A DNA stretch of 64,000 nucleotides from Mobula hypostoma (Eukaryota), in the NCBI RefSeq assembly GCF_963921235.1, contig NC_086108.1:24428001-24492000 (forward strand), read 5' to 3'. This document shows positions 6,896 through 46,840 of this stretch, one piece after another. Numbering within the stretch: position 1 is the stretch's first letter; every line of letters starts with the position of its first letter. The notes under the pieces are model-generated. The model saw only the letters and a list, made by a program, of their open reading frames with translations, made no database searches and was not told the origin of the DNA. A program made the translations under genes and the position numbers.

Positions 6896-7715
6896 AGGGA
6901 AGGTAATTAGGGATGGGTAGTAAATGCTGGCTTTCCCAGGAACACCGATTTTTCTGCAGTGATCAGAGACCATTGGTGTGCCCACTAATAGTTACCAAGC
7001 ATGTGATTTCAAATTCTTTGAAAAATAATTGACAGATTAGTATCTTAAAAAGTGCCCGTGCACTTTGTCCACTCCAATGAAATAAATACATACTATAGAA
7101 TAACCCACATTAAGGAAAGCTTTTAAATCTTTACAGAGAGAAACCTGTAACTCAGGTGGTTCTTTGAAACCAGTTTTCAACAGAGAGAGAATCCACTAAT
7201 TTATGGTTTTAAAATAAGAAAATGTATTTCTTATATAAAGTGTCCTATCCTTGCACTATATATATATTTGAAGTATGGCTGCAGTACTCAGAAGTGAAAG
7301 TAATTTACTTTACTTGTCGATTAATTACTTAAGTGGTATTTCCAGGATAAATTCAACATGCCCTGGTAAGCTTCTCTCAATTAACTCCTAAAACAGGACA
7401 TGCATACAAGACCCTGGAGATGACAAGATCAGATCTCTTAACTCTAGGCCAAGTTCTAATTTGAACTTTATTGTTTTACTTTGGAAACTAAAGATCAATT
7501 TTTTTTTACCTTACATGTTATCTGACTTAGAAACATCTTAATATGCTCTGCTGCCCGTGAAATACTTCTGAGGTGTAGTTACATTTCAAGTATTGAAATT
7601 GGTTTGCTAGCACTTTTTAAAAATGTGTCAATAAATATTTCATTATTCCCTTTCATACAGATTCAAGGAAATTCTACGTGATAATTGACAAACGCCAAAG
7701 ATTTTTAGATCATTA

Positions 7716-8955
7716 CTAGACAATGGGGTGACCCGTTGGGGCACCCTTTGAGAAAAGGGTAGTGCAGTCTGATGTGACCAGAATGTAAATTAAATTTTCC
7801 TGAATGCTATTGGTATCGCTTTGCTTTGGAAACTGAAGCAGAAAACCACAGTTTATTAAAGAAGAATGATGTGTAGCAAAGCAACTATAGTTCCTCCTCG
7901 TTTAACGAAGGACACTTTTGATGGCATCATTTCTGGTTTATTTTCCATCCCTGTGCCTCTTGTTGTCATTCAGGAGATGTGCAGTCCTTTCATCCCCTAT
8001 CTCTTCATCTCTTCTGCTTTTTGTTCTTTGTCTCTGAACCTGGAGACGTGCATTTCTCAGCTCCTTTGTCTCTTCCTCGCTCCTCCTCCTGTGCCTGTTT
8101 TTGTCATTCTGGAGACGGGCAGTCCTTTCAGCCCCTGTCTCTTCATCTCTTCTGCTGTTTGTTCTTTGTCTCTGATCCTGGAGACGTGCATGCCTCTCCT
8201 CCACTGTCTCTTCTTCTCTCATCTTCTTTTTGTCCTGACTCTTTGATCCTGGAGTTGTGCAACCCTGGCCTCATCCGATTCTTGTTCTCTCCCTCTCCTT
8301 GCTGCTTTCTGATGACGTTTGGCGTCATCTCTTGACCATAATGTTCCCCTTCCCTTTCCACGCGGCATAATTAGGCTGACCATTTTTTTTTACCCTAATG
8401 CTGGATAGAAGATACGAAGCACTAACACCAAAGGATGCTGATTATTCTTGATGATGTGGTTGGCGCTCTCCTAAATGGACGTGATATAGTCACCGCCGTT
8501 CTTTGACTGCAGCAAAGGGTTTTATGGGTGTCTCAAAGTGTGTGATTACAATAAGTTTTAATTATCTCTTATTGATGAGTCTCAGTTTGATCTGTCCCAA
8601 TCCTGCACATGCTAATGGTGATGAGCAGAATGTGACCCCTCGAAATAGAGCTGCCCTGCCCTTTTGCTCCAGCAAGTGTCGCTGCTGAGGCAGGCTATGT
8701 GCATGCGTCGGGCTGTCGCGTCCCGATTTCCATGATGGCGGGTCGTCTCTCAGGTGAAAGCGAGCCTGTTGATTTTGGCGAATGAGCCATGTTATACGAA
8801 TATATAACCCTGAACTTTGCCTGCATTCTGCAAGTTAGCGCATTTTAATTCAATTTAGCCAAAAAAAGTGTCACTGTATTGCACCATTTGCGCTAATGGG
8901 AGGTCACAAACAGACAGACATACAGACCAGAGCATGAGAGTTTTGGTAGTATTGC
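7716..8955 (-). mobile_element. Non-autonomous Helitron (~1.24 kb)
   Basis: Minus-strand 3' end has a GC hairpin GGGTGcCCC-AAC-GGGtCACCC (7726-7746), then CTAG (7716-7719) followed by T. The 5' end reads ...aatactaccaaaactctcatgctctggtctgtatgtctgtctgtttgt, a Helitron-like start with (TCTG)n; the terminal TC is not clear. No TSD. Confidence 0.8.
7938..8368 (-). pseudogene. Helitron-borne ORF of five 23-aa STPR-like (E-T-x-E-E-R-x-x-R-L) repeats, with one frameshift
   Basis: ATG at 8368 gives MPRGKGRGTLWSRDDAKRHQKAARRGREQESDEARVAQLQDQRVRTK. After a frameshift near 8225: EEETVEERHARLQDQRQRTNSRR / DEETGAERTARLQNDKNRHRRRS / EEETKELRNARLQVQRQRTKSRR / DEEIGDERTAHLLNDNKRHRDGK*. Confidence 0.75.
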
Positions 8956-9249
8956 ATGACAACTTATTGCATGACAAGTATTAAATAACTTTGTCATGGA
9001 GTCCACTGTAACAGAAAACCATCAAGCAAACGCATAAGATATGTTCATTACAACCTCTTGCAACTTTCAAAACTATTGACACATGGATATAGAGCAGAAA
9101 GGGTATAAGTGTACAAGTTTAGGTCACTGAATCTTAGTCAGGGTTGATGTGTTGATTGGGAACACTTTTCCTCTCTGTTATTTTGAGGATTAATTGTTAT
9201 TGATATTGCCTTTGTCTTCCAACTAAGAAATACAGAGGAAGAGAAAATT

Positions 9250-9760
9250 TTGGAGTGTTTATATAAAGGTGCTTGGAGGTGGCATACAGGTAGTAGTGAA
9301 AGTGACATACAGAACACTGCTTTGTTGCATAAAGCATCTACATTCTACAGTTTTTACATCATTATCATTACACCTTTATGGAATACCATGCACATTTCTG
9401 GTCAGTACTTCAAGAAAGGATGCATTAACATTGGAGAGGGTGTACAGGAAATTCATAAGGACCTTGCTGGAAAATGCTGATTAAGATATACGAATGAAAT
9501 TATTAAAGGATTATTAAATCAAGGTTTATAAATTGTGAGGTGCCAAGATAAAGTGAACAGGAGCTCTGGTTTACTGTACTTTAGCAAAGGGATCGATAAT
9601 TCAGGGATAATTCAAGGTAAAAGGATTGCAGAGTTAAGTATTTTTTGTTCAGTCAAGGGTGATGATGCTGAGAGGCCAGCAGAGATCTAGAACCTGGTGC
9701 CTGAAAGTGTGGAGATGGAAAATAACATTACATTTAACTAAGTGTTGGTTAAGCATTTAA
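9250..9760 (+). mobile_element. Old CR1 LINE fragment
   Basis: RKDALTLERVYRKFIRTL is homologous to the CR1 ORF2 C-terminus. Heavily decayed. Confidence 0.65.
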
Positions 9761-34849: not shown

Positions 34850-36900
34850 TTAGCGGAAGTTAGAGAAGTCAATGTTCATGCCATCAGGTTGGAGGCTACC
34901 CAGACGGAATATAAGGTGTTGTTCCTCCAACCTGAGTGTGGCTTCATCTTTACAGTAGAGGAGGCCGTGGATAGACATGTCAGAATGGGAATGGGACGTG
35001 GAATTAAAATGTGTGGCCACTGGGAGATCCTGCTTTCTCTGGCGGACAGAGCGTAGATGTTCAGCAAAGCAGTCTCCCAGTCTGCGTCTGGTCTCACCAA
35101 TATATAAAAGGCCACATCGGGAGCACCGGATGCAGTATATCACCCCAGTCGACTCACAGGTGAAGTGATGCCTCACCTGGAAGGACTGTTTGGGGCCCTG
35201 AATAGTGGTAAGGGAGGAAGTGTAAGGGCATGTGTAGCACTTGTTCCGCTTACACGGATAAGTGCCAGGAGGGAGATCAGTGGGGAGGGATGGGGGGGGA
35301 ACGAATGGACAAGGGAGTTGTGTAGGGAGCGATCCCTGCGGAATGCAGAGAGAGGGGGGGAGGGAAAGATGTGCTTAGTGGTGGGATCCCGTTGGAGGTG
35401 GCGGAAGTTACGGAGAATAATATGTTGGACCTGGAGGCTGGTGGGGTGGTAGGTGAGGACCAGGGGAACCCTATTCCTAGTGGGGTGGTGGGAGGATGGA
35501 GTGAGAGCAGATGTACGTGAAATGGGGGAGATGCGTTTAAGAGCAGAGTTGATAGTGGAGGAAGGGAAGCCCCTTTCTTTAAAAAATGAAGACATCTCCC
35601 TCGTCCTAGAATGAAAAGCCTCATCCTGAGAGCAGATGCGGCGGAGACGGAGGAATTGCGAGAAGGGGATGGCGTTTTTGCAAGAGACAGGGTGAGAAGA
35701 GGAATAGTCCAGATAGCTGTGAGAGTCAGTAGGCTTATAGTAGACATCAGTGGATAAGCTGTCTCCAGAGACAGAGACAGAAAGATCTAGAAAGGGGAGG
35801 GAGGTGTCGGAAATGGACCAGGTAAACTTGAGGGCAGTGTGAAAGTTGGAGGCAAAGTTAATAAAGTCAACGAGTTCTGCATGCGTGCAGAAAGCAGCGC
35901 CAATGCAGTCGTCGATGTAGCGAAGGAAAAGTGGGGGACAGATACCAGAATAGGCACGGAACATAGATTGTTCCACAAACCCAACAAAAAGGCAGGCATA
36001 GCTAGGACCCATATGGGTGCCCATAGCTACACCTTTAGTTTGGAGGAAATGGGAGGAGCAAAAGGAGAAATTATTAAGAGTAAGGACTAATTCCGCTAGA
36101 TGGATCAGAGTGGTGGTAGAGAGGAACTGATTAGGTCTGGAATCCAAAAAGAAGCGTTGAGCTTTGAGACCTTCCTGATGGGGGATGGAAGTATATAAGG
36201 ACTGGACATCCATGGTGAAAATAAAGCGGTGGGGGCCAGGGAACTTAAAATCATCGAAAAGTTTAAGAGCGTGAGAAGTGTCACGAACATAGGTCGGAAG
36301 GGATGAACAAGGGGTGATAAAACAGTGTCGAGGTATGCAGAAATGAGTTTGGTGGGGCAGGAGCAAGCTGAGACAATAGGTCGGCCAGGACAGGCAGGTT
36401 TGTGGATCTTGGGTAGGAGGTAGAAACGGGAAGTGCGAGGTGTGGGAACTATAAGGTTGGTAGCAGTGGATGGGAGATCCCCTGAGTGGATAAAGTCGGT
36501 GATGGTGTGGGAGACAATGGCCTGGTGCTCCTTAGTGGGGTCACGATCGAGGGGTAAATAAGAGGAGGTATCCGCGAGTTGTCGCTGCGCCTTGGCAAGG
36601 TAGAGGTCAGTACGCCAGACTACAACAGCACTCCCCTTATCGGCGGGTTTAATAATAAGGTTAGGATTAGTGCGGAGGGAGTGGAGAGCAGAGTGTTCCG
36701 AAGGAGTGAGGTTGGAATGGGGACAAGGTGCGGTGAAGTCGAGACGGTTGATGTCCCGTCGGCAGTTAGCAATAAAGAGATCCAGAGCAGGCAGAAGACC
36801 AGAGCGGGGTGTCCATGAAGAAGAGCAGGGTTGAAGACGGGAGAAGGGGTCATCGGTGGGGGTGGAAGCGTCCTTGCCGAAGAAGTAGGCTCGGAGACGG
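34850..36900 (-). pseudogene. PLE reverse transcriptase - Cys linker - GIY-YIG endonuclease (two frameshifts, near 36303 and 35295)
   Basis: IIKPADKG, FYLLPKIHK..GRPIVS, MDVQSLYTSIP, GVAMGTHMGPSYA, RYIDD, linker CKRNKCYTC, and VIYCIRCSRCGLLYIGETRRRL...EHLRSV...HF...GMN. Confidence 0.93.
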
Positions 36901-36961
36901 AGATTCAGTCAGTCTGCCTTACTCAGTTCAATAATACTTTCTCCACTTGCATTCCCACCTA

Positions 36962-46648: not shown

Positions 46649-46840
46649 CTGAATGTCCCAACAAACACTTGTCCAAGTGCAAGCTCCTTAGTCTGGTTAT
46701 TGTAACCATAGAAGACATCCCTAAACCAGGTCTGATTTAGAGAAATGTTGGCATCAGCACAATCTGTACCACCGGTGCAGGATTCAGAAATCAGCTGACA
46801 CATCCGTCCATCTGAAGCTAGTTTGTAATCTTCAATACAA
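46649..46840 (-). CDS. astn1: Internal coding exon of astrotactin-1 (end of an EGF-like module and following linker)
   Basis: Minus strand reads ttttcttcag|T TGT ATT GAA...GGG ACA TTC AG|gtatga, giving a 192-bp phase 2-2 exon. It translates as CIEDYKLASDGRMCQLISESCTGGTDCADANISLNQTWFRDVFYGYNNQTKELALGQVFVGTFR. This matches recalled vertebrate ASTN1 ([21 protein letters not shown]...[30 protein letters not shown]) better than ASTN2. Confidence 0.9.

What the first reader, a model, noticed from the sequence alone, without database searches (positions are those of the whole stretch)
7716..8955. Compact Helitron carrying a stand-alone STPR-repeat mini-gene instead of Rep/helicase
Seen: Helitron 3' hallmarks (hairpin then CTAG|T) and a Helitron-like 5' end enclose a gene-like cassette. 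It has a CpG-rich upstream block (~8640-8790), an ATG at 8368, a basic N-terminus (MPRGKGRG) and five exact 23-aa E-T-x-E-E-R-x-x-R-L repeats. A stop follows at 7938, a second in-frame stop at 7902 (after TRNDAIKSVLR), then AATAAA at 7852-7857 before the terminal hairpin. Known: 23-aa STPR repeats form the DNA-binding domain of silkworm FMBP-1, and similar repeats occur at the N-terminus of some Helitron proteins. Inference: this may be a family of small Helitrons that amplify an independent ~150-aa DNA-binding protein (a trans-regulator of the autonomous partner, or raw material for domestication) rather than a random deletion derivative. This copy has one frameshift.
Basis: partly seen in the sequence, partly recalled or inferred. 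Interest (0 to 1): 0.75.

Follow-up and report, generated by a model that had tools for sequence, protein, structure and literature searches.

The report
Abundant mini-Helitron with leftover transposase start
This is one decayed copy of a very abundant small rolling-circle jumping element that has lost the middle of its transposase gene and kept the DNA-binding start, so it looks like a mini-gene but most likely carries it as a passenger.

Summary
The element is real. Summed contig depth over 7716-~8952 is thousands of times the flank in two DNA-type runs, and copies end at CTAG|T in unrelated AT-rich flanks. The repeats are STPR-like: Pfam E=0.017, below cut-off; a homolog profile hits FMBP-1 at E=2e-5.

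The 'independent mini-gene' reading is not supported. Full-length Helitron RepHel proteins start with the same basic N-terminus and repeats in one ORF. The ORF stops mid-repeat, three codons after similarity to its closest homologs ends. The 11 codons before the second stop resemble a RepHel C-terminus (rank 7 of 10,654), and autonomous Helitrons also have AATAAA there. The frameshift is not private to this copy: the in-frame form of the A-run is 13-28% of depth, a still out-of-frame form 30-56%.

Best reading: a non-autonomous internal-deletion derivative of an HLE1 Helitron. Full-length copies, the direct parent and dN/dS could not be obtained. No look-alike was found in earlier scan notes. 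Side lead: the closest named proteins are snake gene models that fuse this module to other sequence.

The parts
7716..8952 (-). Whole element: one copy of a high-copy non-autonomous HLE1-type Helitron (~1.24 kb)
   Evidence: Summed contig depth, median 4637-fold (X1) and 2768-fold (X5) over flank across 15 inner bins; single copy in the window
8905..8952 (-). 5' terminal region with (GTCT)n-like microsatellite; the terminal TC of the family is missing in this copy
   Evidence: Head-to-tail joint 8952->7722 in one X1 contig; length variants at 8919 and 8923; same layout at 5' ends of autonomous L005/L007/L010
8640..8790 (-). CpG-rich block upstream of the ATG; inferred remnant of the parent's promoter region, promoter activity not shown
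   Evidence: CpG o/e 0.81-1.11 against 0.25 for the window
8222..8368 (-). ORF part 1: ATG, basic N-terminus and first STPR-like unit (49 aa as it stands)
   Evidence: 32-34 of 48 residues identical to P0001, P0002, P0004, P0009
8224..8231 (-). A-run of variable length in the family; site of the frameshift
   Evidence: 2-nt-shorter form 13-28% of depth, 1-nt-shorter form 30-56%; products of 142 and 74 aa
7941..8221 (-). ORF part 2: STPR-like units 2-5, the fifth truncated; inferred deletion breakpoint near 7950
   Evidence: PF21107 E=0.017, 16 bits against cut-off 27; similarity to P0001-P0004 ends at 7950
7938..7940 (-). First stop (TAA), at the column just before the conserved T of RepHel C-termini
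   Evidence: also present in one other copy (X5 joint letters); alignment column
7902..7937 (-). Eleven codons and second stop; probable degenerate relic of the RepHel C-terminus
   Evidence: Rank 7 of 10,654 stop-anchored 10-mers of the window, score 13.8; true C-termini score 30-37 in leave-one-out
7852..7857 (-). AATAAA, inferred poly(A) signal of the parent transposase transcript
   Evidence: AATAAA lies between RepHel stop and hairpin in L002, L003, L008, not within 500 nt in L005, L007, L010
7726..7746 (-). 3' terminator hairpin (8 of 9 stem pairs)
   Evidence: Helraiser has a 19-bp palindrome 11 nt from its end (PMC4778049)
7716..7719 (-). 3' terminal CTAG followed by target T
   Evidence: Loose ends at 7714/7715 in X1 (64 and 120 records) and X5 (57 and 110)

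Best explanation
A non-autonomous HLE1 (canonical) Helitron made by one internal deletion of an autonomous element. The left ~1.0 kb (5' end, upstream region, ATG, basic N-terminus and about 4.8 STPR-like units of RepHel) was joined near 7950 to the right ~0.23 kb (last codons of the helicase, its stop, poly(A) signal, hairpin, CTAG). It keeps the two cis signals for rolling-circle transposition and was copied to thousands of sites by a RepHel supplied in trans. The ORF is a passenger: the A-run slipped freely and out-of-frame forms spread at least as well as in-frame ones. Shown: high copy number, fixed 3' end, A-run polymorphism, repeat/RepHel fusion in relatives. Inferred: the deletion, the helicase-end relic, mobilisation in trans.
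For: (1) Depth and loose ends; one head-to-tail junction contig, as expected from circular intermediates (PMC4778049). (2) P0011, P0014 and P0018 start MPR-basic, and these and P0013 continue through E-[TS]-x3-R-type repeats into Helitron_like_N and PIF1 in one chain; L007 is an unbroken 1609-aa ORF of this kind. (3) The best representative hit, P0002 (62% identity), continues after the repeats into a CxxC segment aligning with the RepHel zinc-finger start (7 of 14 identical to P0016, E=0.007, and to L002, E=0.027, small local database). (4) Similarity to P0001-P0004 ends at 7950 inside a repeat unit, and those proteins run on for 116-249 residues. (5) C-terminal relic rank 7 of 10,654 with the modal N-to-stop spacing of 9. 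(6) AATAAA before the hairpin in 3 of 6 complete autonomous loci. (7) In-frame form is 22-36% of the shortened forms in 4 of 4 runs; of 5 long records listed across the site, 2 are in frame and 3 are not (table 8, my count of net gaps). (8) 8 of 9 listed near-fixed copy-versus-family differences in the ORF are non-synonymous.
Against: The direct parent was not found: no genome is held, no RepHel core lies in the window, and the autonomous loci are distant relatives with no DNA similarity beyond the microsatellite. The C-terminal relic scores 13.8 against 30-37 for true ends, differs at the conserved V-V-Y core, was first noticed by eye, and drops to rank 13 of 10,653 with 14 columns. HELIANO lists STPRs among 17 domains 'encoded in different ORFs' from RepHel (PMC11417382 section 22). 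Pfam finds no STPR hit in P0013, P0014, P0018 (E<=0.01) or L007 (E<=0.05). Depth shares come from short contigs in a repetitive tract and are not copy counts; 182 substitution rows and 27 joints were not shown. Few of the listed joints suggest variable breakpoints into Rep/helicase, so the family has one fixed structure, which a maintained mini-gene would also have.
Confidence: 0.75

Rival explanations
1. The parent Helitron already had the STPR repeats as a separate accessory ORF with its own stop. The mini-element kept that ORF whole and lost RepHel, and the ORF is now a decaying passenger.
For: HELIANO places STPRs in ORFs separate from RepHel in HLE1. The 7938 stop is seen in one other copy and is not among the listed near-fixed differences.
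Against: The ORF ends inside a repeat unit where homologs continue. All full-length relatives retrieved have the repeats in frame with RepHel, although the search selected for long proteins.
Confidence: 0.12
2. One reading: a minority in-frame subfamily makes a 142-aa STPR-only protein that binds AT-rich DNA, such as Helitron ends, and dampens or helps transposition in trans, and is kept by selection.
For: An in-frame form exists in 4 of 4 runs at 13-28% of depth, with ATG, stop and AATAAA in order. Stand-alone STPR arrays bind AT-rich DNA (PMC4856987). The N-terminal 489 aa of Helraiser are needed for DNA binding.
Against: Out-of-frame forms are commoner. All gene-like signals are also found in autonomous elements. 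No stand-alone homolog of 50-161 aa among 51 candidates (weak, the search is length-limited and word-based).
Confidence: 0.08
3. The Helitron captured a fragment of a host STPR gene (ZNF821- or FMBP-1-like) with its promoter, as bat HelibatN3 captured the NUBPL promoter.
For: Promoter and exon capture by non-autonomous Helitrons is documented (PMC4778049). The closest named proteins are snake gene models, not annotated transposases.
Against: FMBP-1 similarity is remote (E=1.6 single sequence). No intron lies in the ORF. The closest homolog continues into a RepHel-like CxxC start, and MPR-basic starts are shared with RepHel proteins.
Confidence: 0.04

Closest known systems
Non-autonomous HLE1 (canonical Helitron) elements, as defined in HELIANO (PMC11417382) and the bat Helibat/Helraiser system (PMC4778049)
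   Same: 3' hairpin about 10 nt before CTAG, T after the end, TC start in the family, no RepHel core, high copy number, head-to-tail junction.
   Different: Keeps the transposase start with its repeats and probably the last helicase codons. This copy lacks the terminal TC. No description of this family was found in the papers searched; Repbase and Dfam could not be searched.
STPR-bearing autonomous HLE1 RepHel transposases (P0011, P0013, P0014, P0018; loci L002-L008, L010; STPRs noted in HLE1 by HELIANO)
   Same: Basic N-terminus followed by 23-residue repeats; microsatellite just inside the 5' end; AATAAA before the hairpin in some.
   Different: Zinc finger, Rep and helicase are absent here. 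The repeats are only about 36-40% identical to those of P0007 and P0008, so these are cousins, not the parent.
STPR domain of silkworm FMBP-1 (PF21107, PDB 5D23) and ZNF821
   Same: 23-residue period; Glu1, Arg6 and Leu10 in 5 of 5 units.
   Different: Below the Pfam cut-off; Thr/Ser2 in 4 of 5 and Arg9 in 3 of 5 units in this copy; carried on a transposon; DNA binding untested.
Snake 'RNA-binding protein 25-like' gene models (XP_013920868.1 Thamnophis, XP_058029732.1/734.1 Ahaetulla, KAK9405686.1 Crotalus)
   Same: 58-63% identity over the repeats and 32-33 of 48 N-terminal residues for the Thamnophis and Ahaetulla models.
   Different: Unbroken ORFs that continue for 190-249 residues, largely into sequence with no Pfam or clear Atlas match; annotated as host genes.

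Membership tests
HLE1 Helitron (non-autonomous) | 3' hairpin followed by CTRR | tested here: met
   Hairpin 7746-7726, CTAG at 7719-7716; family ends at this point
HLE1 Helitron (non-autonomous) | 5' TC terminus | tested here: inconclusive
   Absent in this copy; implied for the family by one head-to-tail contig
HLE1 Helitron (non-autonomous) | Insertion between A and T without target duplication | tested here: inconclusive
   3' T met: alignments of other copies extend to 7715/7714. The 5' A is not testable in this copy, and no empty-site joint is among the 15 joints shown, 27 not shown
HLE1 Helitron (non-autonomous) | Dispersed, multi-copy | tested here: met
   6722 and 5993 contigs laid in X1 and X5; heterogeneous flanks
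HLE1 Helitron (non-autonomous) | Termini shared with an autonomous RepHel element | not testable with these tools
   No genome held; viral, metagenome and genome collections gave no cognate element
Autonomous HLE1 | Rep (HUH) and PIF1 helicase domains | tested here: not met
   tblastn of four RepHel cores against the window gave no hit at E<=0.1
STPR domain (PF21107) | Pfam gathering score 27 bits | tested here: not met
   16 bits, E=0.017; snake-type homologs 14.7-22 bits
STPR domain (PF21107) | Strict 23-residue period with Glu1, Thr/Ser2, Arg9 (PMC4856987) | tested here: inconclusive
   Period 69 nt for 3 of 4 intervals; Glu1 5/5, Thr/Ser2 4/5, Arg9 3/5; profile A1, which includes GA-passing P0007, hits 5D23 as sole PDB match, E=2.3e-5
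STPR domain (PF21107) | Binds the major groove of AT-rich DNA | not testable with these tools
   Needs a binding assay
Functional transposon-borne mini-gene | Intact ORF in the family majority | tested here: not met
   In-frame form 13-28% of depth, out-of-frame 1-nt-shorter form 30-56%
Functional transposon-borne mini-gene | dN/dS below 1 across subfamilies; discrete polyadenylated mRNA | not testable with these tools
   No full-length copies; runs are contigs and their RNA status is a guess

The most novel reading that the evidence does not exclude
An in-frame minority subfamily expresses a 142-aa STPR-only protein that regulates its own Helitron family in trans, and the same Helitron lineage, possibly moved horizontally between distant vertebrates, also gave snakes a fused host gene. 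This repeat module would then be a portable DNA-binding unit repeatedly released from the transposase.
Probability: 0.08. Interest if true: 0.7.

Novelty: new member of a known kind. Interest (0 to 1): 0.25.

Why it matters
As best read, it is an ordinary kind of element. It is useful as a repeat-library entry and as a caution: a deletion derivative inherits a start codon, a stop and a poly(A) signal and so mimics a mini-gene. It would matter more if an in-frame subfamily proved to be under selection, since I know of no Helitron-encoded stand-alone trans-regulator (recalled, not established by search). The snake gene models that share this module are the more promising lead for co-option of a Helitron N-terminus.

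Tried and rejected
No own genome was available, so no copy collection, consensus or dN/dS. The metagenome pattern scan gave 1 locus, L001, a chance 25-nt match in a bacterial contig, which was dropped. Two viral-contig scans found no RepHel relative among 2 and 31 candidate stretches. The genome-contig scan gave 14 loci of 44 stretches; 12 lie in one bacterial genome record and look like eukaryotic contamination; none is the parent. L006 was misframed and not used for C-termini. L003, L007 and L010 were left out of the C-terminal profile as near duplicates, and L008 was used only. The target frame was set wrongly; the test was redone.

Near-length protein search: 0 of 51 candidates. P0005 and P0019 were treated as unrelated or host STPR hits. 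ESM Atlas hits were all under 0.9, leads only. No RNA holder was listed. X10 and X16 are only guessed to be RNA; their depth relative to DNA-type runs is roughly flat over the element (0.017-0.066), which contigs cannot turn into evidence on expression. Sharing of this insertion by organisms A and B is only suggested: X5 records overlap the element by 24-25 nt, below the 31-letter bridging rule. The exon-like ORF at 46669-46839 gave no PDB or Pfam hit. No structure prediction or complex prediction was run.

Full report
Observation. The minus strand shows the features at the stated places: ATG 8368, stops at 7940-7938 and 7904-7902, AATAAA 7857-7852, a hairpin at 7746-7726 and CTAG|T at 7716. 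CpG o/e is 0.81-1.11 at 8601-8900 against 0.25 for the window. Some details are overstated. Repeat starts are 71, 69, 69 and 69 nt apart, but only 1 of 5 units fits the quoted pattern and the fifth is cut by the stop. Position 8955 reads GC, not TC. The hairpin alone is modest (z -1.75). The element is single in the window, and no genome is held.

A large family. Twenty of 24 listed runs, under seven organism labels and a skin metagenome label, hold part of the element's words, none half or more. I laid 4 of them. In the two DNA-type runs the summed contig depth over 15 inner bins is a median 4637-fold and 2768-fold the flank; this is not a copy count but indicates thousands of copies. Loose ends cluster at 7714/7715 with unrelated AT-rich flanks. 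One contig joins 8952 to 7722 head to tail, and its intervening letters imply a family 5' end starting TC about 5 bases beyond 8952. Of 6722 contigs laid in X1, 1049 are 99% or more alike, 1790 are 95-99%, 2638 are 90-95% and 1245 are under 90%. Grabundzija et al. (PMC4778049; abstract and passages seen) describe TC/CTAG ends, a palindrome 11 nt from the end and circular intermediates for Helraiser, which fits.

The repeats. Pfam STPRs scores 16 bits, E=0.017, under the cut-off of 27. FMBP-1 is the only PDB match, at E=1.6 for the single sequence and E=2.3e-5 for a six-row profile that includes a cut-off-passing member. Of the residues named as conserved in PMC4856987 (passages seen), Glu1 is kept in 5 of 5 units, Thr/Ser2 in 4 of 5 and Arg9 in 3 of 5. 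The array works like an STPR array by inference; strict Pfam membership is not met.

Where the ORF comes from. The representative search gave 7 proteins at E<=0.001. The best, P0002 (unnamed Logan record, 79-87% identical to the snake proteins over its N-terminal part), continues after the repeats into a CxxC segment that aligns with the RepHel zinc-finger start (7 of 14 identical; E=0.007 and 0.027 in a small local database). P0007 and P0008 show the same order of repeats and zinc finger. A profile search gave 10 longer proteins among 8000 scored; of the 8 scanned, P0011, P0013, P0014 and P0018 carry Helitron_like_N and PIF1 in the same chain as the N-terminal repeats. L007 is an unbroken 1609-aa ORF of this type, and P0014 matches Helraiser at E=1e-265. 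Pfam calls STPR on P0011, P0012 and P0016 only, all below cut-off. Against this, HELIANO (PMC11417382; section 22 read, passages, and one row of Table S11) counts STPRs among 17 domains encoded in ORFs separate from RepHel. Either way STPR in HLE1 elements is in print.

The join. Similarity to P0001-P0004 ends at 7950, inside a repeat unit and three codons before the stop, while those proteins go on for 116-249 residues. Complete RepHel proteins end in T-x-N-[IV]-V-Y-x-x-x-L with the stop 8-11 residues after the N, 9 in 5 of 7. The 11 codons before the second stop have T, N and L in those columns and a spacing of 9. They rank 7 of 10,654 stop-anchored 10-mers of the window, 3 of 3,614 with exact spacing, and 13 of 10,653 with 14 columns. 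The score (13.8) is far below true ends (30-37) and I saw the likeness by eye first, so I put the relic at about 60%. AATAAA lies 342-345 nt after the RepHel stop in L002, L003 and L008, with hairpin and CTAG at +426/429 in L002 and L008; L005, L007 and L010 have none within 500 nt. L005, L007 and L010 have a (GTCT)n tract just inside a TCTATA start, 940-971 nt upstream of the ATG. Every gene-like signal is therefore something an autonomous parent would already carry.

Is the ORF kept? The frameshift lies in an A-run. As it stands the ORF gives 49 aa; one base shorter gives 74 aa with one repeat motif; two bases shorter gives 142 aa with five. The two-base form is 28, 13, 13 and 13% of depth in X1, X5, X10 and X16, and the one-base form is 50, 44, 56 and 30%. 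No other frequent indel in the ORF compensates (table 4, not truncated). Of five long records listed across the site, two are in frame and three are not, by my count of net gaps. These are short contigs in a repetitive tract, so the shares are rough. Eight of nine listed near-fixed differences between this copy and the family in the ORF are non-synonymous; 182 rows were not shown. The stop at 7938 is seen in one other copy and is not among the listed differences.

Mechanism. A single internal deletion most likely produced a master element with both cis signals, which RepHel supplied in trans copied by rolling-circle transposition (established for Helraiser; inferred here). The retained ORF rode along and tolerated slippage. 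Confidence 0.75. Rivals: a separate accessory ORF in the parent (0.12), a selected stand-alone protein in a minority subfamily (0.08), capture of a host STPR gene (0.04).

Literature and earlier notes. 'Helitron' with 'STPR' returns 2 papers, the HELIANO preprint (listing only) and article. Searches (listings and abstract starts) showed no title describing this family or a stand-alone STPR Helitron. PMC7786948 (passages) gave nothing on it. The library lacks most subscription papers, and Repbase and Dfam could not be searched, so the family may be catalogued. HELIANO's supplementary figures were not seen and may bear on the same-ORF question. The scan's notes hold no look-alike; a word search gave one related theme, e1-7682889, which I did not test.

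Verdict. A real, abundant non-autonomous HLE1 family; a new member of a known kind; interest 0.25. The snake gene models deserve their own look.

Noticed in passing
P0001, P0003, P0004, P0009: The closest named proteins are snake gene models from three genera (Thamnophis, Ahaetulla, Crotalus) in which this repeat module is fused in frame to a shared 190-249-residue continuation with no Pfam or clear Atlas match. That part recalls squamate SCAN/zinc-finger gene N-termini (recalled, no call). Possible co-option of a Helitron N-terminus.
   Followed up: partly
window 8222-8400 against P0002: 34 of 48 N-terminal residues are identical, and the likeness extends a few codons upstream of the ATG. This closeness to snake-type sequences, against about 36-40% to P0007 and P0008, hints at horizontal transfer if the host is not a squamate; not tested at DNA level.
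   Followed up: partly
window 7992-8643 (tables 5 and 5c): The same 650-base skip with 10 other letters occurs in both RNA-guessed runs (depth 56 and 122; organisms A and B) and is not listed for the DNA-type runs. It removes the ATG and most repeats and lacks GT..AG ends. It may be a deleted copy inside an expressed host transcript.
   Followed up: no
window 8951-8978: A 13-base direct repeat separated by 2 bases sits at the 5' junction, where this copy lacks the family's terminal TC.
   Followed up: no
window 46669-46839, minus strand: Exon-like, cysteine-rich ORF segment that recalls vertebrate astrotactin (recalled; no PDB or Pfam hit).
   Followed up: partly
window 34850-36908, minus strand: Fragmented reverse-transcriptase element (RVT_1 E=8e-5) with a GIY-YIG-like tail by eye, Penelope-like (recalled); partial copies elsewhere in the window.
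   Followed up: partly
L002-L008, L010-L013, L015: Twelve eukaryote-type Helitron loci, including an intact 1609-aa RepHel ORF, lie in one record titled as a Dehalococcoidia MAG, which points to animal DNA contamination of that record.
   Followed up: partly
window 9356-9500: A second repeat family begins here (depth 700-1300 against 12 in X1).
   Followed up: no
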